NCBI GenBank assembly: GCA_973895155.1
Contig: OZ316891.1
Coordinates: forward strand, 24,613,899-24,677,898
Direction: 5' to 3'
Source of the DNA: Marsupella aquatica
Taxonomy: Eukaryota; Plantae; Marchantiophyta
DNA: 64,000 nt
Below the pieces are notes generated by a model. It saw nothing but the letters and a program-made list of their open reading frames with translations, ran no database searches and had not been told where the DNA came from. The translations under genes were made by a program, and so were the position numbers. Shown one piece after another: positions 19,899 through 64,000 of the stretch (the first letter of the stretch is position 1; every line of letters begins with the position of its first letter).

Positions 19899-20382
19899 AA
19901 TTCAACCTTTGACTTTCTATTTATTCACATCAATCTAAAATACTTCTCGGTCTCATAGAATGCGCTCACCAATTAAAGTCTCCATATACGTCTATAGATT
20001 GTGAGGCTTCTAAAAACGGTAAGTAGGTTAATTTTCTTTTTTGTCAGCCATTGTCTTGTATTTTTGGACTGAGACAATCCTAATCCAAAGTTCACTTTTG
20101 GTCTTTTCTCTCCCGGGGTCCTCACTTCTTTTCTTCCAACCCATCACGCGCGAATAAGTATAGGGTTTTTTTATTGGGTTTAGTGAAATACTTTTAAATT
20201 TTTGTTGAAAAACATTAGGGTTATTTTAATCCAATTTTCAGAATGATAAGAATCATAGGGTTTTTTAAAATCAAATATGGGAATATTCTTGGAATATTCC
20301 ATTAAGTTAGGGGTAAAACAATTCCTAAAAAAAACTTTATTGACTTAACTTTTAGGGTGTTTATTCCCCCAAAACTTCGAGC

Positions 20383-27607: not shown

Positions 27608-27954
27608 CACCGTGCTAGGAAACAGGAAACAGATTTACTGTTATGAGCAAAACTTTACTGTTACGAACAAAAATAAAATATAAAAAATGTCTCAATAAAA
27701 ACTTAAATTTTTCAAAATATTTTAAAAAACGATCATTTTTGACTAGCGCCAGGCGCTACTATTACTAGTAGTAGTAGTAGCCTAGGCGCTACTATTACTA
27801 CTAGTAATAGTAGTAATAGGGGCGCTAGTAAAAAAATGTCAAAAATACAAACCAAAAAAAATTAAAAAATTCCAAAAAAACAATTCTCAAAAAATTCTCA
27901 TCCATTTGCTCTTTATTGTTTGCTATTTCCCTTTTCCTGTTTCCTAGCATGGTG
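27608..27954. mobile_element. Putative MITE with ~22-bp terminal inverted repeats
   Basis: CACCGTGCTAGGAAACAGGAAA...TTTCCTGTTTCCTAGCATGGTG, AT-rich interior with internal palindromes. No clean TSD. Confidence 0.6.
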
Positions 27955-39811: not shown

Positions 39812-41318
39812 TCAGAGGAGATAGCAGTGGCGACTAAGAGAGAACGAGAGAGTTGGGGTCAAAGCTGGCGCGTGGACTGATGGACTGGTGCACTACAAAG
39901 GGTCAGCTCCCTTTTTATACCCTGAGGGCTTGTCGATCACCCAACGTCTCCTTGTTGCCCATAGGATGAACCGTTCACGCTTGTAGTGTACTGGCCACTC
40001 CGCCGGTCTGAGTCAGCGCATGTTAGTGGCCGCTTCCCTAAGTTTGTTATACGGACCCGAGGAAGGGGCCCCTCCACGCTTGCAACCCGGGCGTGCGAAT
40101 GGCGACACGCCGCCAGTCCAAACATGAATTCCCCTTATTGACTAATGATTTCTTACTTCATAATGGTTACCTAAATACTATTGTTATGCTAATAAGAGCA
40201 GCCTAAGATACCCCTAACACGCGTGCTAAGCGCGGTCCAGACTGAATTACTGATTACTCGCCGTACCGGCAGCGTCACACGGGCTCCTCGGCCTCAAGTC
40301 ACACTTTGTGAGTGCCTCTTGCTCCTCCCTAACCTCTCTATTCCTTTCAGAGTTGTGCAATGCAAGTGAATGACATCCCCGAATGTTCTTGCTGTTGTGC
40401 ATGCTTGCTTGGTTACTAGTTTAGGGCAACTCTGACACTTAGAATTTTTGGCAAATTTTTAAAAACTCTCGGGAACACAGTTTGCGAAGGTGTTGCGATG
40501 CGCATTTGTTCGCAAACCCCTCGCAAAGTCTATCATGGACTTTTTCCATTTCAATTTTCCGATGCCTTTGCGAACAAATGCGCATCGCAAACTCCATCGC
40601 AACGCCTTTGCAAAAAAATGGTTTGCAAGTTGCCATGCTTATAGGTTCGCAAATTTGAATTTTAAATTTTTTTTGGGTCGTGTTTAGTAGTTGAGGATTT
40701 AGGCGTCACTTGTGGCTATAGGGTATGCTTAAGGGCAAATTTAACCAATTTTAATTGGTTTTATGCATGGCAGTATCGGAGGTACAAAAGGAAGATATCA
40801 AAAAAGCATATTGAGGTGGCAATAGAGCATGGACGAAAGTAGCTCTTTGCGATGGTAGATGCCGAGTTGGCTACTGTAAGTGTCTAAGTGTGAACCATAT
40901 GATTAGCATGCAAACATTGTGAGTGACCCTTTATGTCTTGCGGAAACTAATGATATGTAATGGATGCAGGATTTGGATGAGCCTGAGGGGTCGGGTGCTG
41001 ATGTGAGCAGTAGTGATGATGATGAGGGGGCTACTCCTGGTACTAGTGGTGCTCGGGGGGGGGAGTAGTCGTGAGGTAGGTTCTTCCCACCGTGGTAGTG
41101 GTGGTAGTCGTGTGTCATCAGCACACGTTGATGACCAGGGGGAGGAGGAGGACCCTGAGGATGAGGAGGAGGAGTAGGAGGGGCAGGAGGAGCCAGAGGA
41201 GCAGGAGCGCCAATGGCCATCACGCACCCGTCACCAATAGGATCCCCGGAAGGATAAGGGCAAGAAGCCAGCCAAAAAGCCAACCAAGAGGAGCCGCAAG
41301 AGCCCATTCTAGTTATTT

Positions 41319-44446: not shown

Positions 44447-45078
44447 AGGGGTCGTGTACTTCATCAGTTATCAATGAGTTTCATCAGTGACTGATATCAG
44501 TCCAACACCGGAACTCAGCGAATTAGCTGAGATCAATTCTTCTGGGGCACAACCCAATCCACAACCCAATCGCAGTCCGCGCCATTGTCGGCGCCTCTTT
44601 GAGGTTGGATCGGGTACTTTACTTTGACCATTTCTTATGTCAACTGCCTCTCTGACATTAAAGGAGAATATAAAGTTTCAATCTTGGCGGCCTCTCTGAG
44701 ATTTCCTCGAAGTTCAGTTGAATCTCAGCGAGCCCTGCCGAGATTCAACTGAAATTTGAGGAAAAAAAACTTCTCACACAGGGTCTTCGATATATCATGG
44801 GGTGTCGCTACTAAATCTCAAATAGGATCCATACAACACATCGTACAACAGAGTCCATACAACACGTCCCTTTCAAAGACTCATCTCAAAGACCCTCACC
44901 GACTTATCCAAGAGAGCTCGACATGACATTGAAAAACAACACGGGGTCCAGCGTAGAAAGTACAGGACAAGAACATAACCTTTGGAGGAAATTTTTATTT
45001 TACTTTGTATACAACATGTTGCTCTGTTGTGAAATATTCACAAATTGAATTCACAAAGGCAATCCATCAATCCTCTAT

Positions 45079-45903
45079 CTACAAACTGATCATCTGGCAG
45101 ATTAGGTCTACAATAATCTTTTGTCGTATAAGCAGTACATGTTTAGGGTCAACCGCCAATACAGAGTCGCTAGAAAGACGCTCCATGTACATTATGACAT
45201 ATACTCCACAATTGTAACTATCGGGTTGGGCTGGAATAACGTTGCGGACGATGCGTTGCCATTGTAATGACGATAAGTGGGGACAACTGCGCAAGCGGGA
45301 CAGGTCATGGAGAAACCGACCAAAATTCACCAAATCGTCGCATTCCGATGCTTCGCCTCCAATGGGATCGAGCAAATGTAGTTGCTGCAAAGTAAAATCG
45401 ACCACAGCTAGTACCCAATGTTTTGGCCTGTGGATGGGGATTAGAATGAGGTCGAATGAAAAGACTTCAATGCCCTTCACAAATGCCAACGCTGCGTTGA
45501 AGCTGTATGCAAGATGCGTCAAGACATTGTAAAAATGTGTGGGCAAAAGCATGCATTTGGGTTTTGCAATGACCTCTGCTCTACGCTCCAATAGAGGAAT
45601 GTAAGCATTGATGATGTCACAAGTGAGCCATTTTTTTGCCCTCAAGCATTTGAAATCTTTTCTCCTCAATTTTAAGTCGCCGAGGCTGACTAGGACTTCA
45701 TCTTGGTCCCTGATGGAGTCCAATGCTTCTTTGACTATGGTCGCAAGTATGGCGGGTTGATGTTGTTGTGCAGGCACCCCCTGATTCGGTCGTTGGTGTA
45801 TAGGCACCCCCTGATTGACTCCTTGTTGGGCAGTCACTACCTCGTCGACTGGTTGTTGTGGCTCAGTTTGCTTCTGAGCTGCAATGAAGGTTAATTCACC
45901 CAA
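45079..45903 (-). CDS. ULP1-like (peptidase C48) SUMO protease domain
   Basis: WLTCDIINAY, LILIPIHRPKHWVLAVVD, LLDP and QPDSYNCGVY; His/Asp/Gln/Cys catalytic residues present. Confidence 0.88.
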   Translation of the reverse strand: MGELTFIAAQKQTEPQQPVDEVVTAQQGVNQGVPIHQRPNQGVPAQQHQPAILATIVKEALDSIRDQDEVLVSLGDLKLRRKDFKCLRAKKWLTCDIINAYIPLLERRAEVIAKPKCMLLPTHFYNVLTHLAYSFNAALAFVKGIEVFSFDLILIPIHRPKHWVLAVVDFTLQQLHLLDPIGGEASECDDLVNFGRFLHDLSRLRSCPHLSSLQWQRIVRNVIPAQPDSYNCGVYVIMYMERLSSDSVLAVDPKHVLLIRQKIIVDLICQMISL

Positions 45904-46439
45904 AAATTACTCTTCGGAATTGGAGCTTGACAAACTTATGCTTGCATGGTGAGTTTGGGGACTATCACTATCACTTCCTACCGAGCTACTCTCATCCGAT
46001 TCAGCCTCTTCTGCCCTATCATCGACAAATTTGAGAGTCTTCCTTGTTCTCTCTTTCACAAAATGAGCAACTCTTTCTTCATGATATGTATCAGCGTAGC
46101 ACGGTAGGCTTGACTTATCCGGAGAGAATAATGTTGAAGCTTCCTCCCAAGCGAGCTTCACAAGTCGTCTGTCCTGTGTGTCCCATTCCTCGGTTGCCGA
46201 CTTGGTGGTCCTGTCGGGAACTGCTACTAAGTTATACTTAAATCAAATCATGTATTGCGCCGAAATAGACGGATCACAAGAACAAATTTGAGGCAAGTGA
46301 GCCCATGTGGACACCCCAGATAATCCATTGAGTTGCCTTTCGAGATAGATCTCAGAGAGGCTAGCCAAGATGTATTTTTGTCCCTCCAGACGCATCTAAG
46401 GCCCTACGTGGACTTGCCAGTAGAAGTTGACGTGGCCAG

Positions 46440-46810
46440 GCCACCTGGGATTCATCTGGGCGAGGCCCGCCGACATGCATCTCAGAGAGGCCTGCTGAGA
46501 TGGACTTGCATGGAAATCTGAATATGCTCGGGCCAGATGCGATTCCTCTCGGCGAGGCCCGCCAACATGCATCTCGGAGAGGCCAGCCGAGATGGACTTG
46601 CCTGGAAATCTGAATATGCCCGGGCCAGATGCGATTCCTCTCGGCGAGGCCCGTCGACATGCATCTCGGAGAGGCCAGCCGAGATGGACTTGCCTGGAAA
46701 TCTGAATATGCCCGGGCCAGATGCGATTCCTCTCGGTGAGGCCCGCCGACATGCATCTCGGAGAGGTCAGCCAAGATGGATTTGCCCAGATGGAGAGCCA
46801 TCTCGGATAG
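46440..46810. repeat. Tandem repeat, ~4 x 92 bp, two CTCGG(A/C)GAG...CCGA palindromes per unit
   Basis: CATGCATCTC at 46474, 46566, 46658 and 46750. Confidence 0.9.
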
Positions 46811-46841
46811 TCCGCTGAAATACTATGGGACAATATTAAAA

Positions 46842-49800
46842 TCATTGAAGGGAAACGGTAGTAAACTCACATGAAGGCTTTTTCTTCTTGCGCTTTTCTG
46901 GATTGGATTTTTGACGATCCACTGCCTCCTCTTGCTCCGTTAGAGGCACTCCAATGAACTCTGTCATCGTGTGTTCCGCATAAGATTTGAAGTACGGATA
47001 GGATTCGGTCCCAACGACCATCCGCCCACAATTCTCACCAGCCTTAAAGATAGCCCCAAAGTGTGCATTGAACATGACAACAGTTCCCCCTGGCTTAGTT
47101 GTATATTCTATTATACATTGGAGTGTAGCTAGAGACAAGGTGCCACCAAAATCATCAATGGTCTCATTCTGACCCGTTGTATAGTTAGTTAGCCCGTTCC
47201 TCAACTTCATATCAAGCTCGACACTGATTGGCTTCACGTCATCCTTTGGGCATACCTCGGCAGATGATTTAAATCCCCAAAGGTCCAGCTTGAGATATTC
47301 ACTCTGGACGTACAGAACAAAGTCAGTGATGAGTCTTTTTGAGTACAAGTCACCGAAAGAACATAAGACAAGAATGGAGTTAAATCTATAAGACTTACCC
47401 GCTTTTGAGTTGTGAAGTTGAAGGTGGGTGTGGCGTTCCAGATGAAAAAGGTGTCTTTCAGCACCCAATTGGTCTCTTCGTAATTGAGACTGTCACAAAG
47501 TACTGTGGAGTGGGCAATCGAAGCACTGTGCACTATGCCAAACAATCCCTCATCATCGAGGAAAACTCGCGCAAAATCCTCAACCCGACTGAGGTCGTCT
47601 GGCCGGAACAAATTCCACAATGGGATGTTCCCATCCACGTGCATGCGGGTGTCTGATCCCATTTGAATCAGAATCAGATTTGCACCAGACCTTGCAGGCT
47701 TCCCGTTCTTTAGCCAGCCTTCTGCAGCCAAACCACCCCGCCTAAGCTTTCTGCACCAGTCTCTAAAACGGAGTACCACAGCCGATTCTTTACTGTCATT
47801 GGCAGCGTCAAAGTAAGTTTTGAAAAGATACGGAGACCATTTAAAATAACAATGCCTGGGCGGGGAAGAAAAGTTATCGGCGCTTGAACGCCAAACTCCA
47901 ACCACCTCTGTGCCATCCGACTCTGGTTTGCCTTCAACGTCCTCTTCGTAATTTGGGCCATCCGTTGGGGCCTCATGTTGGATTGTCGTGGGCGGAACCT
48001 CTATTGGGCTGGGCGGGGGTTATGGTATGGTGCTAGGCGGGGGTTGCTCTATGGGGCTGGGCGGAATGTCTTCAAGCTCAGTGTCACGTGCTTTTGCACG
48101 GCGAGGTTTGGGCCTCGTTGTTTTGGTCTTTTTTGCAGCCTTTGTCTTTGGCCTTGAGGATAATGGCATCCGTTTTGGCGCCGGAGTATCAGACTCACGC
48201 CCCTCTTGTTCGTCTTCTCCTTCGTCCTCTACCCGTTTGTCTTCTCCTTTGTCCTCTACCCGTTCATCTTCTCCTTCGTTATCTACCCGTACGTCGTCTG
48301 AATGATCCCCTCCTTGGGTTGCGTTCTCTCCCTGGGATGCGTCATGCTCTTGTTGCTGCTCGCTTTGTTGGTCTAGAGGCTGGTCTACCATTGGCTCTGT
48401 CGAAGGCTACACGCTTTGTTGCTCCACTTGCTGGTTGCCTTGTTGTAGTGTAGCCGGCTCTATCGTTGGTTCTGCAGTTGGTTCTATAGCCGACTCTATT
48501 GTTGGCTGTGGAGCCTTCTCTATAATTGGCTTTGAAGCCACTTCTACAGCCTTGCTTTTTACAGAACCTGGTTCCTCCGGTATCTCCTTCATACCTGGAT
48601 AGATTGCAAAGCAATGGGGTTATTGATCCTAAGCTTCTCTGCGAGCCTCGCCGACATGACATCCAAACACTTGACATTATACTTCATCTGCAAAGGTCCG
48701 GACGACATTTGGCTGTTCTTCTCAACGAGCCTCGCCGAGATGAGATCCAAGGGTTCGAACGAGATGCGACTGAAACTTGTTTGTTCTTAGCGAGCCTCGC
48801 CAAGATGAGATGCAGTCTATCTCAACAACCCCAAAATTGGTTCAGTACTATGTTAGCAAACCCAGCCAAGATGTAGTTCCAAATGAAACCACTATGCAGT
48901 GCGAAAGGAATCGAGTAATACCTGATGTTTTTCTTGGACTGGTTAGCGAGTCAGACTTACTGATGTCGCTCAATGGTTCCTTCTCAACCTTCCGTTCACC
49001 TTCTTTTCTGGCCTTCTTCCTGTCATAGGCAGGGTCAGTTGGGATAAGGGTCTCCACCTCTGTTGCCTCCGTTACTGAGTCTGACAGTTGTCGCAACTTT
49101 GTTATATCGTAGTAATTACTAGGTTCCTGTGCTTCTTTGAGCAGGTCTGCACTATCCTTCTCGGCAACCTCAAGAAAATTGTTCCAATTGTCATACTCCA
49201 TGTACCATGGGCAGTTCCTCCGTTCCCAATCCGAGAATACTCTGCCATGAGGCATGCGACCATCACATGGATACATGCTAAGGCTACCTGTAGCCTCCAT
49301 CCAAGATCTAATCGCCAATGGTAGTTGTTTCAACATCGTTGCATTCATGTTCTCCTGATGTATGAGAAATCTTGTCACGCACCGCTTTGTTCGCTTAATC
49401 CACGCTTCCCGAAACGCCAATTTGGTATTCCCTTCATTCCAAATGGCACCGCCTACTTTTAAGGATTTCTCTTGCACATAAGATCGGTAAAGCTTTCTAT
49501 AAAGCTTAGCAAAATTCCTCTCGCGTTCCGCTAAAATTGCCAGGCTGGTAGGCCTTCTCAGCAAAATTGGTCAACAAGATACAACCAACGTAGTCGATGT
49601 AACACCACATTGACCACATTGCTAGCCATGATCTAACTGCTGAATCACTATTGCTACGTGGATGGTGATACCTACTCCTATCTTCCTCCATTCCAAAATG
49701 AGCCTTCAAGAGTTTTAATCTGCACTCTGCAGTTAACCAAGCCCCAGAAAACAAGCAGATCCTGTCCAATCCAACCTGCACATTCATGACACCCTGCTTG

Positions 49801-50944
49801 GCCTCCTTTGCCAGCTTGTGATAGAGCTGTCGACATGCCGGGATGAATTCCAAACCATTGGCTGAATTCACGCAGGCCGCGAGCTTGGGGAACTTAGCGT
49901 CCCAGCTCTTGCACGCAGCAGTAATCATTGCCTCAGTCTCATGCTCAAGTCTCTTGGCATTCCACGGGTGCCCACGACCTGCGTCTTGTGCCATTTCCTT
50001 TGAAATATTGATTCGCCCCGCTTCAATGTTTGACCAGCTCATGATGTACACAGCTGCCTCTTTTGTCATGTTCTTGGAGTACCAAGTCTTCCCGTGGCCA
50101 CGATTTTGAGCCTTGAGGAAACCATCCAGCGTCTCCTTGGACATAAGCAAACTGTACTCCTCCAATGGAGTGTTTAACAGCTTCGCCACCCGATCGGCGT
50201 CATTGAACCATGACGTCCTCATGACAGTCGCGCTTATCCCGGACACGGCAAAGAATGTTCTTAGGTCTAACATTCAAACAGGGCAATCTTTGACAGATTG
50301 CCAATAGGGTATTCACACAAGGGAAACAATATTGTATACCTGTTGTTGCAAAATGTGAGTTACTTACGAGTTCAGAGCGTGCATTGCTTGCTCAACCTTC
50401 TTGAATCCGTCCTTTCCAGCGTTCAAAAGAGAGAATCTGACACACGGATGGTACTACGGTTGATCTAGAAACTCCTCCGCAACTGTAGACCAAGCTGTGT
50501 ACCTATGGTTTCCGTCAAAAACCCAAAACATCTTGTGCTTGAGCATTTTGAAGTCCTCTGACGCATCGCACTCTTGCTCAAACTGCTCATTGATTTCAGT
50601 CCACAGCAAGTCCCAATAGGGCTTGAACTCTGCCACTGTCCTCGTCTCCCCTGCTTCATTGAACTCAGTGATGTGGAACTCGCTGAGCTTACAACATAGC
50701 CGCTCTCTCTGAATCCTTTTTTTAGTTTGACCACTGACTCATCATGAAGATTCTTGACGGCCTCCATTGGCATGAGCCGGCATAAGGGGATCCGGGGAGG
50801 ATCTTTTTCAAACTTCATCTCATACTTGGAGACGATTGACTCCCAAGCTCCCTTCTCTACAATATTTGCTAATTCCGCTGCTCCTATTGGCTCGAACGAT
50901 ATTTGCTTTGGCTCAAACTTCCTCCTTGAGTCCACTGACTCCAC
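46842..50944 (-). pseudogene. Spliced, decayed gene encoding ParB-like domain plus degenerate beta-class DNA methyltransferase-like domain (transposon 2 cargo)
   Basis: ParB-like RIPLCRLMPMEAVKNLHDESVVKLKKGFRESGY...FWVFDGNHRYTAW (50454-50800). C-terminal ANLILIQMG, ARVFLDDEG and LQCIIEYTTKPGGTVVMFNAHFGAIFKAGENCGRMVVGTE. Confidence 0.65.
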
Positions 50945-51984
50945 AAGGGGACCACCTTGTGAGCGTGTTAGTCAAGATGTCACTGGCGAAGGGGACAAAG
51001 ACCATTGTTTCTTACTCCGCTGAGAAGTTCCGCTATCAACAGGTCCAGCGACAGAACCAGCCGAGTCTTTTCTCTTCACCATTGTGATCTAAGATTACAT
51101 GAGAAAACATTCAAGAATTACTTCACAATAACCATACATCTCGGCGAGCCCCGCCGAGCAAAATTTTTGACATGTCGAGCTTGCAACATACATTCAAATC
51201 GTGTAGACAGTCATGCAGTGAACAAAATTTCCAACCTCGGAGATGGGTGAAGCGCCGCGCTTGAAACTACAACCCGCTGAGAGTGATTCGACCACCGCCG
51301 ATTGAGACCTTCAAATCAGCCTTTGTAGCACAAAGCTTGAAACTTTGAGAGTCAACCGCTGCCGAGCTCAAACCAAACTGAGACCTTCAAATCACCTTTG
51401 CCAACCAGCACAGAGCTTGAAACTACGAGACTCGACAACCGCCAAGGTGAAGCCTTCAAAACACCTTCGCAAACCAGGGCACACGGCCACACTTGCCGAG
51501 AATAAGTGGAAGAGAGGAAAGCCAATGTGATTGGAAGACTGGGACAAAGAGCGGAGGGGACCTAGGAAGAGCGAGGATGCGTGAGGAATAACGGGGAGTG
51601 AATGAGACGGGGAGTGAATGATGAAGAGTGAGGAAGCACAGGGATAAGTGAGAACAACGTTGAAAGCCCTAACAAAGCGTGAAGAGCAAGAGTGACGAGG
51701 AAGAGTAAGGAAGAAGGACCCTCGTACCGCACATACCGCACCGGTGACAAGGAAGAGTAAGGAAGGACCCTCGTACCGCACATACCGCACCGCACGGAAG
51801 TACGCCATGGATACAAGAGATCCCCGGTACCGCACCGCACACAAGTACATGGATACGGGAGATCCGAACTATACTAGAGAACGTACATGTTGTTAATTAA
51901 CGGGCCAAACAAGAAAGTACGCGACCAAACAAGAAAGTACGTAGGTTCTAGGGTTTACGGCCCAGTACGGGGTATGAGATTTAG

Positions 51985-52240
51985 GGTCCAAATCTCAAAG
52001 ACCCTCGCCAACAATTAATTGCGGCCCATACTGAGACGTGTCAACATCTCAGAGCCTCGTCCCAAAGAGGAATGGGGGCCCACAATACGAGTCCAAATCT
52101 CAAAGACCCTCGCCGAGAATGGATAGCGGGCCAATACTGAGACATGTCAACATCTCGGAGCCTCGTCCCAAAGAGGGAATGGGGGCCCACAATACGAGTC
52201 CAAATCTCAAAGACCCTCGCCGAGAATGGATAGCGGGATT
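51985..52240. repeat. Tandem repeat, ~2.5-3 x 105 bp
   Basis: GTCCAAATCTCAAAGACCCTCGCC at 51987, 52091 and 52198. Confidence 0.85.
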
Positions 52241-53079
52241 GACAAAGACCTCTAAACCCTAAACCTATATACCCTTGGGTGGGGTATACAAAGCTGCAAT
52301 GAGACAGCACCGAGACAGGTATAGATCTCGGAGACCCTCTCCGAGATGGCGTGGTGTGCCACATCTGGCAGTCATCCTGTTTTGAGACACTCGCAAAAGA
52401 GGATTGTGGACAAGGAAGTTGACAATCTAAATCCAAAAGACCCCTGCTCCATGTCAAAGACCCTCACCAACATAGAAAGGCGTGCCCCAAATGTCTTCAC
52501 TTTATCTAGGAGATGAAGAACTTCAGACACCTTGTACTCTCGGAGACCCTCTTTGAGAAGGAGTAGTGTGCATGAAGTGGCAATGCCTCTAAACTCTTGG
52601 ACCATATCACGGGAGGAAAGGTAAGGCAGATCAGGCATCGTGTCTCTCGGAGATCCTCTCCGAGATGGAATTGAGAGGCACTAGTCCCCCGCCGTGGGAC
52701 CCAAGATGTCGGAGACCCTCGCCGAAATGGGACTATGGAACTAGAAACACTTCTCCGTACCATAAATCCATAAACTTTTTACAATTATCTGTACAAAACG
52801 ACTCGGCAACTCCAAATTGGGCGTTTTTTCCTCTACAATGCTCGAATATATCTCGGAGACCCTCGCCCAAATGGGATTATGGAACTAGAAATGCTTCTCC
52901 GTACCATGAATCCAATTTTTTTGCAAATATCCGTACAAACCGGAGTTTTCTCTCTTTTATAATGCTCGAATATATCTCAGAGAGGCTCGCCGAGTATGAT
53001 ATGCACTCCAAACAACCGACACCAAACTCTGAAGTAGACCTGCGCCAAGGAGGCAATCTGGGAATCCTACATCCAAATC

Positions 53080-54050
53080 CATCTCAGAGACCCTCACCGA
53101 GTAAGAGATGGAATCAAAAGTCGATGATGCTCCAACTCGGAGAGTCGATGTTGAACAGTCAATGTTGCAAAAACAACAAATCTCCTACTGAGAAACTCTC
53201 GCTTGCACAAGAGTGTGGGCCCCAAGAGTCCCGAATAGATCTCAGAGACCCTCGCCGAGTAGGAGTAGGGATAAAAAGTTGATGATGCTCCGACTTGGAG
53301 AGTCAATGTTGAACAATCAATGTTGAAAAGTCAACAAATTTCCTACTGTGAAACTTAGGAGTGTGGGCCCCATGAGTCCCGAATAGATCTCAGAGACCCT
53401 CGCCGAGTAGGAGTAGGGATAAAAAGTCGATGATGCTCTGACTCAGAGAGTCAATGTTGAACAGTCAATGTTGCAAAAACAACAAATCTCCTACTGAGAA
53501 ACTCTTGCTTGCATAGGAGTGTGGGCCCTAGGAGTCCCAAATAGATCTCAGAGACCCTCGCCGAGTAGGAGTAGGGATAAAAAGTCGATGATGCTCCAAC
53601 TTGGAGAGTCAATGTTGAACAATCAATGTTGAAAAGTCAACAAATTTCCTACTGTGAAACTCAGGAGTGTGGGCCCCTGGAGTCCCGAATAGATCTCAGA
53701 GACCCTCGCCAAGTAGGAGTAGGGATAAAAAGTCGATGATGCTCCGACTCGGAGAGTCAATGTTGAACAGTCAATGTTGCAAAAACAACAAATCTCCTAC
53801 TGAGAAACTCTCGCTTGCACAGGAGTGTGGGCCCCAGGTGTCCCGAATAGATCTCAGAGACCCTCGCCGAGTAGGAGTAGGGATAAAAAGTTGATGATGC
53901 TCCGACTCGGAGAGTCGATGTTGAACAGTCAATGTTGAAAAGTCAACAAATTTCCTACTGTGAAACTTGAGCTTGCACAGGAGTGTGGGCCCCAAGAGTC
54001 CCGAATAGATCTCACAGACCCTCGTCGAGTAGTAGGGATAAAAAGTTGAT
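53080..54050. repeat. Tandem repeat, ~6.5 units of 147-159 bp, with ATCTCAGAGACCCTCGCCGAG palindrome
   Basis: AATAGATCTCA at about 53233, 53381, 53540, 53687, 53845 and 54003. Confidence 0.9.
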
Positions 54051-54330
54051 GTAGGGCAAAGAGGGGATCGGGCCCGCATGATGGGACTTTCAAGACCACG
54101 ACGTGCAGAATGTACCACATCCACACATTGCAGAAATGTACCTTCTTGGCGGCTGCTGGCAATTAGGTACCTTCTTTGCGGTACAATTCTCGTTATAAGT
54201 ATGTTGCGGGTCATACGCTCGTTCTACGCACGTTGTATCATTATAAGTATCATTCCGGGTCATACAATTTCTCTATGCACGTTGTCCGGAACGGTATTCT
54301 TGGCCGTAACTGGTACGTACAGGTGCGTTA

Positions 54331-57300
54331 ATGCTGAGCCTCAAAGTTTGTCATTTTAAGGGATGTCAAATCATTCCCTATGTGGATTTGGGAAACATGG
54401 CCTCTCTTGTGATTATCACATCTTTAACGGGGGATGTAGTTGTTTTTCGTAATTCTAACGTTGACATTGTCCGAGTGACTAAGGAACATGAAGTAGCGAG
54501 CCGTTTTGGTTTGAAGGTAGGGGATTTCATGATTTATGAGGAGAGCAAAGACGGGTTGTCCACGTCTGCTGAATCCAAAGGAGATGGAGATGAGCGAGAG
54601 TGGTACCTGAAGTATGGCGCGTCTTATATTCTCTGCAGAAAGACGGGGTGCATACCAAGTGCACACCATGTCAAAGAGGGTCTCCAACATGAAGAACCTT
54701 CTCAGACGAGTACCCCTCGGTCGAATTCATTTCGAATGTGGGAGGATCTCGGAGATGGTGATACTCCACCAAAGGAGACACCTCGATCCAATGGGATTCA
54801 TGTCAGAGGGGGTCTTCGAGATGGTGAACCTTCACCAATGAATACACCTCAGTTAAACACATCCCAATTATGGGAGGATCGTGGAGCTTGTTATCGTCAA
54901 CCAAAGGAGACACCTCGTTCAAAGGCATCCATCCTCCGCGAGGGTCTCCAAGATGGTGATTTGGTATGGAAGGATGAGTTCCTTGTCAGTGTTGTTCATG
55001 CCATGTTGCACGGAAAAGGGACCTCTTGTTGTGTACAAGCTGCTCGTAAGATTTTGAGCATGAAATTGCCCGAGAGAGTTCTGCGATTGCCAGAATTCTA
55101 TGATGGAGACCATATTTTTGAGTTGCCACCCTTTACTGGTCCATACTCTAAGGGTTGTTTCTTCTTTGGAATGGAGCGCAAGAACGATTGTTACATGTGG
55201 AGCCGGTTAATTGAGACGGGAGCAAACATTGGCCCAAAGCTGAACAACAATAGTCACTCGTACAAGATCCAAAGCGTCAAGTGTTTGGGTTCTCTGCGAT
55301 GTCTGCATGAGGATTGTGAAAATTTTCAACAGCAACAAGAGCACAATTCTTCAAAGTGGACCTGAGATCGAGCAGGCACAAATGAGCTACCTTTCCCTGT
55401 TGGATGCGATGTTCCCCCGTCGAGTGTAATTTGTACGTACTGCAAGAGGCCTCCCAGGTGTATAGCTCGATGCCCAAGTGAGATGTACTATATCACTCCA
55501 ACCAAGGATGACGTGAATTATTGTCACAAGTCTCGTGTTGCGATGCATATAGGAAATCACACCCATCCTGCAATGTTCACGCATAACAAGGATCAACAAT
55601 CAGTTGTGCGCAATCTTGTGGAGGTGGAGCTGAAGAGGAGTCCGACTGCTATGCCGTCTGTTATCAAGGGCGAGGCAATACAGAAACTTAAAGATATCCT
55701 TGAAGACCCAGTGGCTAAAATGGTGACATCTGAGGAGGCAAGAGACCTTAATGAAATGTTGTCCATCCTCGGTGATGAATCCATTTTTTGCTCTATGATC
55801 AAGAGCATCAAGAAGTACAGTCATGTGTCGTCTGATCTTAACATGATACTGGAGATGCGGAAGGTGACTGCCTTTCTGTTTATCCAAAGTGTTTTGTTCC
55901 CATCCCAGAACGTGGGAACAGACGAGCGACCGCACATTTTTTAAATGAGTACGGAAGGTCCTGGTTCCGGGGTGGACCTTGTTCGAAGAATGCAGCCAGG
56001 CGGGGATCTTGAGCATTCATGGGTGATGTCTGATGTGATGCATCGTATACTTGACAACAAATGGTGCACCATGTCAGCACACGTGTATGACCATTTCTAT
56101 CGGGGCCTGTGCACAATCTTTGTTTGTGAGCTGGTTTCAGAAGATAGTGCGGCATTACAAACTGCATGGAAGGTCATGAGGAGGGTGTGTGGAGAACATG
56201 GGCTTATCAATGTTGAATTTTGTGGCTTTATGGCTGATAATGCTGCTGCTGGGTGGAATGCAATCCACAATGAATTTTGGGATGGAAAGGTAAATACCCA
56301 TAGAGAGAGGTCTGATGCGTTTCACTGGGCCCAATCAGTGGAGAGGGTGCAGAAGCACATTGTCCCACAAAAGAGTTTGAGCATAAGGAAATTCTAGATT
56401 CGCTTCAACATGCCGGCAACATAGTTCTTGCATTTCGAGTTTTTGAGAAGCTTAAGACGTGGTGGAGCGAGGGCAACGCGCTACCTGGAAAAGCGAAGGA
56501 GCTCACAACGTGGATGTCTTGGTGGATTGTTCGGTTTTCTCAATGGGGAAATTTTCTGAGACTTGTAAGTGTCTAACGCTTTTCCTCTATATGCATGAAA
56601 TCCGTCAAATCTTGGCGAAGCTCGCTGACATGGGGTCAGTTGAAGGGATGTTCAATTGGACGACCTCTGTCTGTAACGCTTTCTGTCAAATATCGGCGGC
56701 GGTCGCCGAGATATGTTTCCAATTGTATTGACATTCTTCTTGGAAATTGTAGGAGATGGACAGAGAAAAGGCTGCGCTGATGCCTAACCACAGCGGGGCA
56801 GAGTCGGTGCATGCGGTCATGCGGAAATGGTCCTCTAATAGAAAGGTTGGGTTAGTACAGTCCTGTAACTTAGATGCAACTTGAGCATTGAGCCAGGTTG
56901 CATCTTTGGAGCACTACCAACACAGTGGGAGGAAAGGGCGGGGACCGAGCCTATTTGAACTCCGACTTTGAGACGCTACTGCTGTTGGGAATGTGGAATC
57001 TTTCTTTTCAAAATTGAACACATTTATAACTCAACCAGAATTGCGTAAGTTCTTGTCGGCGGACCCACTTAGCGGAGATGTAGAAACGGTTTCTATGAAG
57101 CGCGGGAAGGCCATTTCTGGCGCTCATGTGGTAGTAGAAGATTCACACAGGCCTGACATTGTTCTGGTAACGAGACCAAAGAAGAGGAAGTTCAAGGGGG
57201 TTGCAAACAGGGACGCAACCTTAAAAAGCACAGATCCTGAAGTTGTGGATTTGTCTTCTGATGGCGGTAGTGGCTCGGGCGAGCCTGAAGTTGTCATTGT

Positions 57301-57545
57301 GGAACCTCTCCAACGGACGACAAGGTCAACCCCATGTCCGGAGCCCGTCAGAAGACATGTTCAGGAAACTGATTTGGTGCCAGGGACGTTATTTCTGGCC
57401 CGCATCTCAACATGTGGTAAGAGTCCCGGTTGTAGAGGTGCGTTCAAAGGCAAGGAATGGGGATTATGTGCTTGATTTATTAGAGAGGCAGGATTGAAAG
57501 TGAGCGGATTGGGTGTTGTTGGTATTTGTTGGCTGGCGGTGTCTT
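54331..57545 (+). pseudogene. Mutator-like (MULE) DDE transposase with GCM-like Zn domain; several stops
   Basis: KCLGSLRC...CTYC...C...HIGNHTHP, then WVMSDVMHR, GFMADNAAAGWNAI, DAFHWAQSV, WWI and AESVH. In-frame stops at 55363 and 55942. Confidence 0.72.
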
Positions 57546-58546
57546 GAGGATAAGCAAAGAGGTGGGAAAAGAGGCTCAAGGGACACGCAGGGTGTATGGC
57601 TGCTTGAGATAGGAAACGGTTGCAAACAAGATAAAGTAGACCCTAAGCACTTTCTTTCATCCATGTCATCACAAGCAAGCAAGCAAGCAAGCATGCTTTC
57701 AAAACTCAAGCCATTTACATACTCATATCCAATCACAATCAAAATAACTAGCTCAAGCTTCCCAATGTAATCCTCACAAGTCTAAGCCCAACATTCAATT
57801 GGTCACCATTCCTTTTCCAACACTTGATTGCACACAATCCCTTGCAACCTTCTAAGGTACACAAGTTCATGTGTACATTCAATGTGGTCAAGTTAAGGGT
57901 CACTCTTGGTTGTGGCTAAGACAAGTGGGACATCCAAAGGTATGCAAGGCATCTCTATGCACCATTCAAACATCCAACTTTTGAAACATGGGAAACTACT
58001 TTCGAAAAGTGACCTAGGGTTGGTCAACAAACTCCTTAACAAACATGGAATTGACCTTAGTCCCTTCCTCTAGTAGAACCACCAAGTATAATCCACAAAC
58101 AACCCATTCCATCAATAGAAAATGCCTTTACTCTTTACTCTTGCAACTTCCCTCATGCATAATAACTACTTTTGAAAGTACCTTCATTCAACCTATCTAC
58201 TTTCAAAAACACCTTCAAGCTCACAACAACATTCAAAAATGTCATGAAGACATTCATTCTAACCATTCCATCACTCATAGCCAAAGCAAGGCATCAACAC
58301 ACATCTCAAAAACGAGGATCATACCTCTCCTCTAAATGCATAGCAAGAAGGCACATGTAGCATCATGGCCTCCAAGTAAAAACATGGGTCACAAGCAAGA
58401 CCCTCCTAGCAAAAATGAATCATCACCAAGTCTAATCATCAACCAAGCATTCAAAATCCCTCCATAGCCTATCCAAGCTTCAAAACCCTAGTCTCCTTCT
58501 CTCATACTTCCTTCTATCAACCAAATCTACTTTCGAAGCTTCAAGT

Positions 58547-61500
58547 TGTGATGCCTAGACAGGAATCACTCGGCCGGTTAAGTGGGTAAAGCAGGAAGGC
58601 ACCCTAGGAACACCTTAGTATAGTGACAAAACAAGGAAAATATAAACAATTAGGGGCAACCATGGAACCCGGGCAGAGGCCGGAGGTAAGGCTGAGGGTG
58701 AAAACCCGATTAGGGTTAGGGCGCGTTAAGCATCGGCGGCTAGGAAGGATCAACGGGAAGAAGGACCGGCAGAGGAGAGGGGTAAGGAGCGCTTGCAGGA
58801 GATGGTGGCTCATTTGCGAGCACGAACTAGGCAGACGACTACGGGAGGCCAACTACTGTCAGCTGCTTAGGCAAGCACTCGGGGAGAGAGTAGATACCGA
58901 CGATCGACCTAAGGAGGGTATGAGCAACGTCAATCAAGCGGCACATTTCTAGGGATGCCTGTTCGAACGGGCAACTGAGTACATCAAGACTTACGAGGAC
59001 GAGGAGTCAGAAAGGGCAGCTCGAGAACGGCAGGAGCTCGCTCGATTGTGGGAGCTGCAGAAGACGGCTTTCTTAGGAGGCGAACTCATCAAGGACGAGT
59101 TCCTGTGGACGCCTACTTCCAATCAACTCGACGATCTTCTGTTTTGCAAAGACAGCGTCGTCGGCATCCGAGAGGCCATCAAGAACTGCAACGACATACA
59201 CTGGGAATTAAAGGGTAGCACGGAAAGGTGGACCCGGGCAACGGTGCTAGGAGAAACCTCCACGGCAGCAGAGATGAAGAGGAAGGGGGCCGTCAATGAT
59301 GAAGCCACCCCGGCAAAAAGAACGAGGTCGGCGGCACCAAAGAAGCCAGCCGAGCAGCAGAGCAGGAGGCAGGGAGAAGCCGAAGAGGAGGAGGTCGATC
59401 CCATCAAGGCCATTCCAACCAGGGATGACACCTGGAAGGTCTGGGCGGCAACCCTACCGGTGGAGGTGCAACTACATTTTGCACGGGAGGAGGATGCATG
59501 CTTTACGGCCATGCAGACCAAGAAGTACCAAGGCTTCATGGCCGGATCCAGCTTGGAGGCCTTTGTAAGATTACCATGGCTGAAGTCGGAGGTACCGGAG
59601 TCAGACCTATTAGAATTCGTGGGGTCATGGGAACCCGAGACCAATTGCACGAGGATATATGGGAAGGATTTCTATCTTACTCCCAAGGTGATTGCCGAAG
59701 TGTTTGGCTTGCCGATGGGCAATAAGACCAAAGTTGATACCAGGAAGACCTTGCCTGACAAGGAGTTCCGGTCGTTCCCCGGGCCATCAACGAAGAATGG
59801 CTTCTTCCGGAACACCTGCACCAACCCGCACATAGGAGAGATGATCGACTTCTTGCGGGTGACCATGCATTGTAACTTACCGAGGGCAGAGATCGGCAAG
59901 GCACAGGTCTATCTGGCAGAAAGGCCAGACCCAAGCCGGGACTACAACGGGTACCTCCTCAACCAATTGAAGAAGATCTTAAAGGAGGAGCAGCAGGTAA
60001 TCGGCATGGGGAGCGTGTCGCGGCTTGGCTATCACATGCCGCTGTTGTGCCGGTATGCCAGAGGTCAGACTTTTGCCCCGGTACTTCCCCTGCAGGTAAG
60101 GGCACCCGAGGAAGCTCCAACGCCGAGGCCGTTGGCTGAGAAGCCTCAACCACCTGTTAGTCCTACGATCGAGCAGGTGTTTAGGCCCAGGAAGGAAGAC
60201 TTGCCGATGCAGCAACCAGGCATGCAGAGTCTGCTGAAACTACTGGAGAAAGAAAAGAAATCGGCATCGGCAACAACAATGGCAACGGCAACAATGCAGG
60301 ACACTACTACAGAGGTAGGCCTACACCGGCTCACAAGAGAAAACCCCTTTGCTGGAGACAAGAAGAGAATCAGGCCAGAATCCAAGCCAGGTGTTCGAAT
60401 GTACGTGGGAACCTCAAGCTCCGAATCTGAGGCAGAATTGCCTGAAGCTCCTACCGAGGAAGAGGAGAGGGAGAAACCGGACGTCCAAGAGGTAGAGGAG
60501 GCAGTGGAGGACTGCAGCCATGATAATTCCGGCTATGGGTCGGACCATCACGTTCCAGGAGTAAGGACCTATGGCCGGTTTGTCCCCACACTTCCAAGGG
60601 TAGTGCGAGGGGACCCCAACCAGCAGAGTAGCCCTGAGTCTCCCCCACCAGATGTCGCTCCCCCGAGCTTCGACGGCATAAAACAGACGGTGCAGGAATT
60701 TCAGGAGCGAATCAAGCAGGAGAAAGAGGCCGCCCTGGCTAAGGAAAAGGATTTACCAGGAGGAGATTGGCCGGAGGACATCAGGCGGCTAGCCGAAAAA
60801 GGAAGCAAACCTCTAGCCACGATTGAAGAGATCCGCAGGACGGCGTGGGAGCAGAGGCCACGATGGGCGATGCCGATCACTTCTACTTACTCCACCTACG
60901 CTAAGAATAGAGCCATGGAGTATGGTGAGATGTGTGGGGAACTTGCGCTTGGCATCTTTGGAGAGGAGTTGGAGGTAGGACCCTTTTTTCACAGGGAGCA
61001 GTTGGAGAAGCACCAATTAGAAGAAGCGGTGGCTTTAGAGAGAAGCAAGAAGGACGAGGTCATTCGGCGGCTTAGGAGGATGGAAGCCGAGATTGAAAAT
61101 CTAAGGGCGGCCAAGAAAGCCCAAGATGAACTGCGGATTAAACGACATGAGCTGAACATCATGTAGGGGCAGTTGGACGCTGCGCAGGCTGATAATCAGA
61201 ATATCAAGGATAAACTGACTCAGACGCAGGAAGAGTTGGCCAACACGATCAAAGAGAGGGAGAAGTGGAAGCAAGAGCTGAAGAATACAGAGGAGGCCCA
61301 CATAACAGCCAACAACCGGGCCATGGCGGAGACCCAAAGAAAGGAATGGGCGTTGAAAGGGGAGCTCGAGAAAATCCGCGGAGCCCTTGAGCAGAAGGAG
61401 GTCGAGTTAGGGAAATCCTATCAAGGGATTATGGCGCTGCAGCAGGAGCTTGCGTCCCTGACGGCCAGCTTCAAGGCCGACCTAAGGGAGAAGGACGAGA

Positions 61501-63206
61501 TGCTCGAACAGACTTACGCCAAGATGAACCAGATGGAGTCTGTCATCATTGCAGAGCTCGACAAGGAGCTAAGAGCAACCCAAGAGGAGAGGGCTACCTT
61601 GAAGAAGGAATTGGAGGAAGCCCACAGGGAGCAGGAGGAGGCCAAAAACGAGCTGGAGGGGGCACGTAAGGACCTGGATGAAACCCAAGAGGAGTTGGAG
61701 GAAATCACGAGGAAGATGGAGAACCTACAGCGGTGGGCCGACAACCAAACAGAGCGGCTGAAGAAACAAGCCGCAGTATTTAAATGCTTAGCTGCAGCAG
61801 GTCCATCTCCCGTTGGGACAAACCAGTTACCAGGGGTGGTAATTGCCGAAGGACAAGCCGCGTCAACTGCACCAGTGCCGGAAGTAAGTGGGAAGGGGAA
61901 GGGACCAGCTGCCGAGCCACCAACGAAGAAGAAGCGGAAACCTCCAGGGTCAAGGAGTAATACGACTTCACAGGCCGTGGTGATCAAGGAGGTAGACCCA
62001 GCATCGACCCCAGACAGGGTCACGGCTAAGGATCCAACTACCCTAGGGGAAGGGGAGGCCGAAGCCGAGGGAGTGGCTGAAGCCGAAGCCGTGGGAGTGG
62101 CTGAGGCCGAAGCCGTGGGTATTGCCGAGGCCGGTGTCGAGGCTGAAGCCGAAGGTGGACCCAGTCAGGCCGATGGAGAGTTGACTCGGTCAAGGGCAGG
62201 TAATCTGTCAGTAGGCGGGCCAACGGCAGTGGCTGAGGAGGAAGTGTTGGGGGCGTCCATTGAGGATCCACCACCGGTGTCGTGACGGTGCAAGGGCGCC
62301 GTTCCTTTTAGGGAGGGCGGACGTGGAGGGAGGAGGCGTGAGTGGGCAGGGCGGGCACGGATCTCCACGTTTAGGATTAGGATCAGAACCAGGAGCGGCC
62401 CTGACACTTAGCTTAGTGGGATTGCGGTTCCACTGGTAGGAGCAACACTTGTGCTCCTGCCTTGCTGTACATAGGTAGATTCGGGCAAGTAGATTACTGT
62501 CAGGTAGATTAGGCTTACGATGCAAAGAATGGCGGATCCACTACCAGGATAAGTACCTGGGCAGCGGGGAGCTCAGGGCCTCTTCTTTAGCAAGTTTTTA
62601 GTTTGCACCAGCCGGGCTGGGATCAAGTAGTACGAGAAGCTCTCGGTTAGTCATACAGTGACCCTTGTGTATATTCATGTTTCCTCATGCCTAAGAGCTG
62701 AATAGAGTTGGCCTCACGGCTTAGTTCGCAGAACTTGTGTATGAGATGTACTGTTTGTATGGCAAGTGCATGGTATGACTCAGTCAGAATGAGTCATTTT
62801 GCTATTTGTGTGTCGCATTAACTTGTGTGAAGAGTGCCCACATCAACAGAAGGAAGGAAAGTAAGCAGGGGAGTGATAGTTGGATGTGTCGAGCTGAGAG
62901 AGGTCTTAGCGGCTTAACCAAGCCTATTGGGGATCATTCCGGCGGCGGAATCCAAACATACCTAACAAGACGGAGGGGAAGACAGGGGAAGACAAGGGAA
63001 GGCCTATATTAGGCCGGCTACGTATCTCATGACCTGATGAAGGATCTGTCCAGTATATGTGTGTAAAATGTTAATAGTAGTAGTAGAAGGTTAGCAGCGT
63101 CCCATGCCGCTAAGCCGCGGAAACGGCCTCGCCAAGCACGAAACCTACGGGAATCGGCTTGAGCTGGGGGGTTTCTTGGGTTTAGGGAGCCATGGGACGC
63201 ACCACA
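58547..63206 (+). mobile_element. Giant LTR family A, copy 4: complete 4660-bp 5' LTR of a Ty3/gypsy element
   Basis: TGTGATGC...GCACCACA inverted termini; both ends confirmed by the other copies. Followed by PBS and gag. Confidence 0.93.
58662..62285 (+). pseudogene. ~1207-codon single-frame ORF wholly inside the LTR, with two premature TAG codons
   Basis: ORFs 58623, 59046 and 61173 are in one frame. The stops at 58950 and 61164 are TGG and CAG in copies 2 and 1. TATAAA at 58641. Confidence 0.85.
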
Positions 63207-63210
63207 TTTT

Positions 63211-63228
63211 TGGCGCTAGATGGAGGGG
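63211..63228 (+). promoter_or_regulatory. Primer binding site, probably tRNA-Asn
   Basis: TGGCGCTAGATGGAGGGG 4 nt after the LTR. Resembles the complement of the plant tRNA-Asn 3' end as recalled (1 mismatch). Confidence 0.75.
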
Positions 63229-63275
63229 GCATTTCTTAAGCCGTGAGATATGAAGTTAGAACGGAAGCGTAGGTA

Positions 63276-64000
63276 ATGACTGACCTTACGCCGAGGGAAG
63301 AAAGAGTGATTCAACGGGAGAGAGCTCGACTGCAGCAGCTCGCCGGGTGGCATGATACACAGCGACTGAGAGGGGCAGAAAGAGCTGGTAGCTCCGAAAC
63401 TGGAAGTGGCGTCGAAGAAGACATACCAGAAGAAGAGTCGGTAAGGAGAAGTGAGTCTCCAACCGACATGGGGGAACCAGAGGCACAGCCAGACGAGAGG
63501 CCAGGGACCAGATTGAGCCAGCGGTCGCGCATACATTACAAGGCATTTCATGGGAGAGGAGATGAGGATCCGGACGAATGGTTGGATGATTTCGAGGGAA
63601 CCGCTGCAGCAAATGGAGAATCGGCCATCAAGATGCAGATTCTTCCCGGCCTGTTCAAGGGTGAGGCTAGGCCTTGGTACAGAGCATTAGATGTGGAAGA
63701 TCAAGCCATCTGGGATATCTTCAAAACACTCTTTGTTAAGGAGTTTCGACCCATTGGAACTTCAGAACTAGCAGTGCTGAAGTTGGGACAACTTCGGTTC
63801 AAGGAGAACAAATCCTTCAGGAAGTTCTTGCAACGCTTTCAGAAACTGGTAAGACGTACAAAGACCAATGCATCTGAAGGTATGCAACTTCAATGGTTGG
63901 TGAATGCTTTGCCACAGAAGATGAGTTTTGCAATTAGAAAGGAGAACCCGGAGACTTTAGCCGAAGCAATTAAGGATATTCAATTATACATTAATGCAGA
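63276..64000 (+). CDS. gag: Ty3/gypsy Gag (partial, runs off window)
   Basis: Open frame reading FHGRGDEDPDEWLDDFE...LFKGEARPWY...WDIFKTLFVKEF...LQWLVNALP...NPETLAEAI. Confidence 0.88.
   Translation, partial: MTDLTPREERVIQRERARLQQLAGWHDTQRLRGAERAGSSETGSGVEEDIPEEESVRRSESPTDMGEPEAQPDERPGTRLSQRSRIHYKAFHGRGDEDPDEWLDDFEGTAAANGESAIKMQILPGLFKGEARPWYRALDVEDQAIWDIFKTLFVKEFRPIGTSELAVLKLGQLRFKENKSFRKFLQRFQKLVRRTKTNASEGMQLQWLVNALPQKMSFAIRKENPETLAEAIKDIQLYINA

What the first reader, a model, noticed from the sequence alone, without database searches (positions are those of the whole stretch)
44715..56715. Transposon 2 has its own dispersed ~23-bp palindrome with a 3-nt spacer
Seen: ATCTCGGAGA-CCC-TCTCCGAGAT is perfect at 52325-52347 and near-perfect at about 52646. 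Variants (CTCGG[A/C]GAG..CTCGCCGAG) occur at about 44722, in the 92-bp array, at 48640-48810, at 51140, in the 105-bp and 147-159-bp arrays, and in the transposase intron (56610-56712). The geometry matches transposon 1 but the sequence is unrelated. Inference: each element has a private address motif co-evolving with its ParB-MTase or transposase.
Basis: partly seen in the sequence, partly recalled or inferred. Interest (0 to 1): 0.75.

Follow-up and report, generated by a model that had tools for sequence, protein, structure and literature searches.

The report
Transposon palindrome tracks its ParB cargo
A broken plant jumping gene carries 39 copies of one 23-letter near-mirror DNA word, nearly all in introns and spacers; the same word occurs in relatives whose predicted ParB-type passenger gene is about half identical and a different word in more distant ones, so it is likely the docking site of that passenger protein, which would help the element escape silencing.

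Summary
There are 39 copies (up to 6 mismatches) at 44692-56712 and none in the other 50 kb; shuffles give 0.6. They lie in 19 flank contexts, and 36 of 39 are non-coding. Three details need correcting. Only 1 copy is a perfect palindrome. The '3-nt spacer' is G/C-constrained and often pairs (11+1+11). Transposon 1's word is 25 bp and shares a GA-CCn-TC core. The host is a broken, multi-copy, probably Mutator-like element of a likely liverwort. It carries Ulp1 and a gene for a predicted ParB/Srx-fold domain joined to a likely dead amino-methyltransferase fold. New test: 2 of 2 metagenome relatives with 47-51% ParB identity carry the same word in that gene's intron; 0 of 3 at 31-36% do, and two of those carry another palindrome with the same 6-bp half-site at 2-bp instead of 9-bp spacing. 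So the word is clade-specific, not private, and follows the ParB gene. Binding and anti-silencing are inferred. The idea is in print for algal transposons, and this scan noted the same arrangement many times on other DNA.

The parts
44448..58546 (.). Transposon 2, visible part. The left end is inserted in a Copia integrase gene; a Gypsy LTR interrupts it at 58547; the right end is outside the window
   Evidence: Contigs of the uninterrupted Copia leave the window at 44447 (runs X3, X5), contigs of the element run on unlike the window after 58546, and contigs span 57536-57981; Copia and Gypsy domains
44692..44905 (.). 4 motif copies, 245-460 bp inside the left end
45079..46260 (-). Ulp1 (Peptidase_C48) SUMO-protease gene, with an internal stop; 5' extent approximate
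   Evidence: PF02902 E 1.7e-20; frames
46349..46777 (.). 9 motif copies; 8 lie as pairs 25 bp apart in the 92-bp tandem array
46845..48600 (-). Cargo gene 3' exons: acidic linker and amino-methyltransferase-like domain with eroded catalytic and SAM motifs; intron at about 47398-47320
48635..48806 (.). 3 motif copies in cargo-gene intron 2 (about 48921-48595)
48922..50243 (-). Cargo gene middle exon, predicted all-helical; candidate DNA-reading region, unproven; frameshift near 49560
   Evidence: 37% to Calypogeia P0003, 42% to L002; low-confidence model
50355..51083 (-). Cargo gene exon 1: ParB/Srx-fold domain with DGNHR motif; broken by a stop and a frameshift
51138..51160 (.). 1 motif copy just upstream of the cargo start codon (likely 5'-UTR intron)
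51992..54031 (.). 17 motif copies between the head-to-head genes: 105/107-bp array (3), dispersed (7, including the perfect copy 52325-52347 and 52644-52666), 148/158-bp array (7); plus a half-site remnant at 52504
54331..57600 (+). Transposase, broken; Mutator-like by catalytic-core motifs read by eye; intron 56566-56752
   Evidence: no Pfam, NCBIfam or PDB hit
54668..54954 (.). 3 motif copies in a 132-bp in-frame repeat at the transposase N-terminus
56609..56712 (.). 2 motif copies in the transposase intron

Best explanation
The 23-bp near-palindrome recurs 39 times in this transposon, almost only in introns and spacers, and is likely the binding site for a predicted dimer of the element's own predicted ParB-fold, likely methylase-dead cargo protein, which would coat the element and keep it from being silenced. 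Shown: the copies, their confinement and non-coding bias, the cargo gene, and that the word is kept in relatives with about 50% identical ParB exons while other words occur with more distant ParB genes. Predicted: the ParB/Srx fold and a dead methyltransferase. Inferred: (1) two subunits each read a half-site (outward C/G-T-C-G/T-C-C-G-A-G-A-T), probably through the helical middle region; (2) sites are multiplied by tandem duplication and lost by small deletions and CpG decay, and are kept where they do not disturb coding; (3) occupancy, perhaps spreading from the sites as ParB clamps do, protects promoters and introns from host methylation, as VANC does for VANDAL; (4) new specificities arise by changing half-site sequence or spacing, together with the protein. 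This copy is dead and would depend on an intact family member in trans. My odds: cargo protein is the binder about 0.7; anti-silencing given binding about 0.65-0.7.
For: 39 copies versus 0.6 expected, 19 contexts, none outside the element. 1 of 19 contexts in coding DNA although about 57% of the element is coding, p 3e-6 with approximate exon limits. Copies lie up to 8-12 kb inside the left end and in the cargo gene's own introns. L001 (47% to P0019) has 2 copies and L002 (51%) has 1 copy in the intron after the ParB exon; shuffle means 0.005 and 0. L003 and L005 (33%, 31%) lack it and carry a 24-bp palindrome with the same 6-bp half-site 2 bp apart instead of 9. Transposon 1 has its own 44-copy word. 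In the unseeded scan only the two cargo-bearing elements show dispersed dyads above background, apart from one local low-complexity repeat. Model of close homolog P0019 (pLDDT 67.6): all 10 VIA-align rows at Z>=2 are ParB/Srx-fold proteins (family assignment of some rows recalled), top KorB Z 5.9, rmsd 3.4 over 93 residues; top Foldseek hit ParB, E 0.055. In public runs some contigs match only at the motif and have other flanks, e.g. X6 record 25 at two places. Precedent: VANC binds motifs in non-coding tandem repeats and causes demethylation (PMC5735166, passages); ParB genes beside inverted-repeat arrays were proposed to bind their own element (10.1101/2025.02.11.637652, passages).
Against: No binding or methylation data. 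The DNA-reading domain was not identified: the middle-region model has pLDDT 43. The fold scores are middling (Z<6, no Foldseek E<0.001). CTP boxes are only partly kept (GNHRYTA versus GERRXRA; Box I without its S and P), so clamp spreading is uncertain. Variation among family copies is not lower in the motif: 9 of 36 variant positions fall in 27% of the span, p 0.46, although 5 of the 9 move toward the consensus. CpG o/e in the element (0.63-0.96 in most parts) is not above young Gypsy neighbours (0.63-0.86), and 36 of 130 departures in the motif are CpG transitions, so the sites have been methylated. Co-variation rests on three word classes; L003 and L005 are one family; L004 (36%) shows no palindrome in 2 kb; the transposases of L001-L005 are unknown; the first intron of this copy lacks the word. 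Transposon 1's cargo could not be aligned to this clade.
Confidence: 0.5

Rival explanations
1. The cargo protein binds the word but for another purpose: repressing the head-to-head promoters, or bridging and compacting the >14-kb element so that its ends meet for transposition (ParB/KorB-like).
For: All the evidence for the binder applies. 17 copies sit between the two divergent genes; the top fold match is the repressor KorB; no CpG excess was seen.
Against: Copies in introns and array-borne amplification match the VANC pattern closely; a SUMO protease cargo points to chromatin (inference).
Confidence: 0.2
2. The word is the transposase's own binding site (subterminal or internal repeats), with transposase-driven activation as shown for AtMu1.
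For: 4 copies lie within 460 bp of the left end and 5 inside the transposase gene; the transposase has a Cys/His-rich N-terminal region. AtMu1c transposase binds and activates its own family (10.64898/2026.08.24.746577, section 7 read).
Against: That binding was at the TIRs, whereas 35 of 39 copies here are 1.9-12.3 kb inside the left end. The word is kept in the ParB gene's intron in diverged relatives. Transposon 1, with a weak En/Spm-type hit, shows the same design. Scan notes report the design on Sola and Helitron elements (unchecked).
Confidence: 0.14
3. The word is (or was) the target that the element's amino-methyltransferase marks with 6mA or 4mC at a GA-N3-TC-type core, as proposed for algal elements.
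For: The domain is homologous to N6/N4 methylases; a Riccia relative keeps a DPP motif; the inner GA/TC is 86-91% kept and shared with transposon 1's word.
Against: This copy and its 11 nearest homologs lack DPP at the catalytic position (QMG here); the glycine-rich SAM motif is eroded; L001's two copies have TG for GA on one side.
Confidence: 0.09
4. The word is a by-product of tandem duplication, or works as a hairpin in DNA or pre-mRNA, with no protein reader.
For: About half the copies are in arrays; variation among family copies is not lower in the motif; the middle base is G on the sense strand in all intragenic copies and decay is strand-biased.
Against: 19 unrelated flank contexts with information dropping sharply outside 23 bp; retention in introns whose other sequence has diverged; weak hairpins, median -1.9 kcal/mol.
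Confidence: 0.07

Closest known systems
Bostrychia Plavaka elements, PAG3 (10.1101/2025.02.11.637652; passages seen)
   Same: ParB-like accessory gene on a giant DNA transposon; tandem arrays of inverted repeats next to it; proposed self-binding.
   Different: PAG3 is fused to a 2OG-oxygenase (the methylase is a separate gene); red algae; En/Spm superfamily; the passages seen give no motif sequence or co-variation with the protein. Here the sites are also dispersed in introns and shared across a protein clade.
Ectocarpus Sola1-1_Ec32 accessory gene (PMC12477816; passages and reference entries seen)
   Same: ParB-like plus N4C/N6A methyltransferase fusion, transcribed opposite to the transposase; proposed to bind and modify its own element.
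   Different: Brown alga, Sola1; methylase described as active; the word 'palindrom' does not occur in its main text. Here the methylase is likely dead, the host is a land plant, and Ulp1 is present.
VANDAL/VANC anti-silencing of Arabidopsis MULEs (PMC5735166 passages; PMC10398659 abstract)
   Same: Element-encoded accessory protein; short family-specific motif in non-coding DNA, amplified by tandem repeats; motif differs between families.
   Different: VANC motifs are 8-9 bp and not palindromic as given; no ParB or methylase fold is described for VANC; binding and demethylation are proven there and only inferred here.
Bacterial ParB/parS and ParB-family regulators KorB and VirB (PMC10653881 abstract and section 8 read)
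   Same: ParB/Srx fold with a palindromic site; VirB shows that a ParB relative can act as an anti-silencer.
   Different: CTP boxes only partly kept; no ParA in the element; no HTH shown; the site is longer than parS (16 bp, recalled) and degenerate; fused to a methylase fold; eukaryotic and intron-containing.

Membership tests
ParB/Srx superfamily (cargo N-terminal domain) | ParB/Srx fold | tested here: met
   On close homolog P0019: 10 of 10 VIA-align rows are ParB/Srx-fold, best Z 5.9, rmsd 3.4, 93 aligned; Foldseek top hit ParB E 0.055. Moderate scores; no Pfam ParB hit.
Classic ParB/parS clamp system | CTP-binding Box I (ELXXSIXXXGXXXP) and Box II (GERRXRA) | tested here: inconclusive
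   KLKKGFRESGY and GNHRYTA: L, hydrophobic, G and G, R, A kept; S, P and two R changed.
Classic ParB/parS clamp system | Central helix-turn-helix DNA-binding domain | tested here: inconclusive
   Region after the ParB domain is predicted all-helical but at pLDDT 43; Atlas search of a homolog uninformative.
Classic ParB/parS clamp system | Cognate ParA ATPase | tested here: not met
   No ATPase family among the element's ORFs scanned; the right end of the element is outside the window.
Classic ParB/parS clamp system | Site-specific loading and spreading | not testable with these tools
   Needs binding assays or ChIP.
Active N6A/N4C amino-methyltransferase | Homology to the N6_N4_Mtase fold | tested here: met
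   Through P0014 (PF01555 E 3e-5, just under the cut-off): N-half E 5.4e-4, C-half E 7e-9 pairwise; only PDB hits are methylases.
Active N6A/N4C amino-methyltransferase | Catalytic DPPY-type motif and glycine-rich SAM motif (motif names recalled) | tested here: not met
   QMG at the position of P0014's DPP, and no DPP in P0001-P0011; FNAHFG versus CNLGYG.
VANDAL/VANC system | VANC-family protein | tested here: inconclusive
   No Pfam family for the cargo exons; fold is ParB plus methylase; no direct comparison with a VANC sequence was made.
VANDAL/VANC system | Family-specific motif in non-coding DNA, amplified in tandem repeats | tested here: met
VANDAL/VANC system | Protein-induced loss of methylation in trans | not testable with these tools
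   The CpG proxy was uninformative.
Mutator (MULE) superfamily | MULE DDE transposase | tested here: inconclusive
   Motifs FMADN and DAFHW fit by eye (pattern recalled); no Pfam, NCBIfam or PDB hit.
Mutator (MULE) superfamily | 8-11-bp target duplication, TIRs (PMC6446971 passages) | not testable with these tools

The most novel reading that the evidence does not exclude
Land-plant transposons have adopted a bacterial ParB/parS-type nucleotide-gated clamp as an anti-silencing address system. Each ParB clade reads its own palindrome, new addresses arise partly by re-spacing a shared half-site (9 bp here, 2 bp in the L003/L005 clade), and the clamp spreads from intronic sites over the whole element while a dead methylase fold and a SUMO protease keep host silencing off.
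Probability: 0.22. Interest if true: 0.85.

Novelty: new variant of a known kind. Interest (0 to 1): 0.55.

Why it matters
Only VANC (and recently transposases themselves) are proven sequence-specific anti-silencers, and the ParB accessory genes of algal transposons have no defined target. Here the target is spelled out, with natural cognate and non-cognate protein-word pairs. That makes the published proposal directly testable in a liverwort, and if true would give a set of orthogonal, programmable-looking chromatin openers and a eukaryotic use of the ParB fold.

Tried and rejected
No RNA holder was listed, which says nothing about expression. Word-indexed search with the middle exon found nothing among longer proteins. 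Viral contigs gave no relative and no motif match. The single prokaryotic-genome hit L006 is spurious: it lies antisense within a histidine-kinase-like ORF and was dropped. The Atlas search of P0003 residues 1-200 was uninformative. The middle-region model was too poor to search with. Pfam, NCBIfam and PDB sequence searches gave nothing for the ParB exon family or the transposase. Reduced polymorphism in the motif was not found (the 'away-from-consensus only' p of 0.047 is post hoc). CpG retention did not separate the element from young Gypsy copies. Covariation at the variable pair 8/16 is inconclusive: 17 of 39 copies, or 14 of 22 contexts, are complementary. Transposon 1's cargo did not align with this clade; its ParB/methylase label rests on motifs seen by eye and a Pfam hit at E 0.12. 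Look-alike searches in the scan's notes by sequence returned nothing. No complex prediction was sent. Paper searches found no report of this gene-plus-palindrome arrangement in land plants; Iyer et al. 2011 (cited by PMC12477816) and the journal version and supplements of the Bostrychia paper were not seen and may bear on novelty. PMC4738411 (passages) mentions only a ParB-type HTH fused to chlorophyte Dam methylases.
Full report
Setting. The window is repeat-rich eukaryotic DNA. A microbial-type terpene synthase at 30.7-31.8 kb and named homologs from Calypogeia and Riccia point to a liverwort (inference). 'Transposon 2' starts at 44448, where contigs of the uninterrupted Copia leave the window, and continues to 58546, where a Gypsy LTR is inserted; its right end, TIR and target duplication cannot be seen. 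Contigs of four public runs from three coded organisms cover it (30 of 30 bins in three runs, 28 in the fourth), many at 80-95% identity, so it is a multi-copy family. It carries Ulp1 (PF02902, E 1.7e-20), a spliced cargo gene on the minus strand and a transposase on the plus strand, head to head; all are broken in this copy.

The observation. All coordinates check out, with 52644 for 52646. There are 39 copies with up to 6 mismatches, all inside the element, against 0.6 in dinucleotide shuffles (maximum 4 of 300 shuffles), in 19 flank contexts. An independent pattern search gives 20 sites and 0 in 100 shuffles, and an unseeded dyad scan finds the same word. Information is high over 11 bases on each side of the centre and falls to background beyond (inflated inside by the selection). 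Only one copy is perfect, the mean is 6.4 of 10 pairs, and the centre is G/C-constrained and pairs in 15 of 39 copies. Predicted hairpins are weak (median -1.9 kcal/mol). 36 of 39 copies are non-coding; by context 1 of 19 is coding against about 57% coding DNA. Transposon 1 has a 25-bp word in 44 copies, all within 12906-20064, sharing a GA-CCn-TC core with this one (10 of 23 positions).

The cargo protein. Exon 1 is 74% identical to an intact unnamed protein, P0019, one of 14 family members at 46-100% identity to it, all with DGNHR. Its model (pLDDT 67.6) matches only ParB/Srx-fold structures (10 of 10 rows; best Z 5.9; Foldseek top hit ParB, E 0.055). The CTP boxes as defined in PMC10653881 are partly kept. 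Calypogeia P0003 spans the middle exon and the methylase half, showing that these are one gene. The C-terminal domain links to N6/N4 methylases through Riccia P0014, but the catalytic and SAM motifs are eroded here and the catalytic one in the 11 nearest homologs, so it is probably dead. The helical middle region is the natural candidate for reading DNA but could not be modelled.

The test of co-variation. A metagenome scan with the ParB exon gave 5 loci out of 123 candidate stretches. L001 (47% to P0019) has two copies of this word and L002 (51%) has one, each in the short intron after the ParB exon; chance is 0.005 and 0 per shuffle. L001's variant also occurs in transposon 2's own 92-bp array. 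L003, L004 and L005 (31-36%) have none. L005 has five copies (plus one that is a base shorter) of a different 24-bp palindrome in a 126-bp array upstream of the gene, and L003 has one; this word uses the same 6-bp half-site with 2 bp instead of 9 bp between the halves. L004 shows no palindrome in its 2 kb. So the word is neither private to one element nor universal: it goes with a ParB clade. The sample is small (three word classes, short contigs, transposases unknown).

Results against. Among family copies, variants are not depleted in the motif (9 of 36 positions in 27% of 52321-52740, p 0.46), though 5 of the 9 show that this dead copy has drifted from a consensus kept by others, two of them in every covering contig. 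Other copies have extra letters at 52503-52511 where this one has only a half-site, so sites are lost by small deletions. CpG content does not distinguish the element from young Gypsy neighbours, and CpG transitions are the commonest class of departure in the motif (36 of 130).

Mechanism. The best reading is a cognate site for a dimer of the cargo protein, used as in VANDAL/VANC to hold off silencing (0.5). The same binder with a repressor or end-bridging role (0.2), a transposase site (0.14), an active methylation target (0.09) and a readerless repeat or hairpin (0.07) are the rivals. Sites, gene and co-occurrence are shown; fold and inactivity are predicted; binding and function are inferred.

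Comparison and novelty. ParB-plus-methylase accessory genes on giant DNA transposons are in print for Ectocarpus, and ParB genes beside arrays of inverted repeats, with proposed self-binding, for red-algal Plavaka elements. VANC is the proven functional model. It works like VANC and is built like the algal genes, but is not shown to be a member of classic ParB/parS or an active methylase. Seven paper searches found no land-plant report. The scan has noted the same arrangement on many other elements of this genome and another (unchecked notes, which also led me to the two algal papers). What this follow-up adds is the defined word, its clade-level sharing, and the re-spaced half-site in a distant clade. 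Verdict: new variant of a known kind, interest 0.55.

Noticed in passing
window 44448-54300: Departures from the motif consensus are strand-biased: G>A 24 versus C>T 9 on the + strand, one event per context, p 0.014. The middle base is G on the sense strand in all 9 intragenic copies and in the 3 copies of L001/L002. Unexplained.
   Followed up: partly
window 57600-58546: This motif-free part is almost devoid of CpG and CHG (o/e 0.12 and 0.04) and has several-fold higher summed contig depth in two runs, yet is contiguous with the element in other copies: a shared, heavily methylated subterminal piece or an old nested repeat.
   Followed up: partly
window 54668-54954: Three motif copies, with half-sites between, have become a 44-residue in-frame repeat at the transposase N-terminus.
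   Followed up: partly
window 50282-50302: The first intron of the cargo gene, which holds the motif in L001 and L002, has here a different 21-bp palindrome (9 of 10 pairs), possibly a collapsed site.
   Followed up: no
window 11600-21800: Transposon 1: weak En/Spm-type hit, ParB-like and methylase-like motifs by eye (SGQH; VLDFFSGG), an NIF/FCP1 phosphatase gene and a 25-bp word in 27-bp and 79-bp arrays, one of them intronic.
   Followed up: partly
window 30689-31771: Intact intronless microbial-type terpene synthase (TRI5, E 1e-14) among the repeats.
   Followed up: no
window 27740-27830 and 40490-40620: Short local clusters of inverted repeats resembling CACTA subterminal repeats (resemblance recalled).
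   Followed up: no
L004 1628-2065: A 126-bp repeat in an intron of a distant ParB gene, without a clear palindrome.
   Followed up: no
window 1-11480 and 58547-64000: Three copies of one Gypsy family, two of them 98-100% identical and 59.6 kb apart, with a long coiled-coil ORF of unknown function.
   Followed up: no
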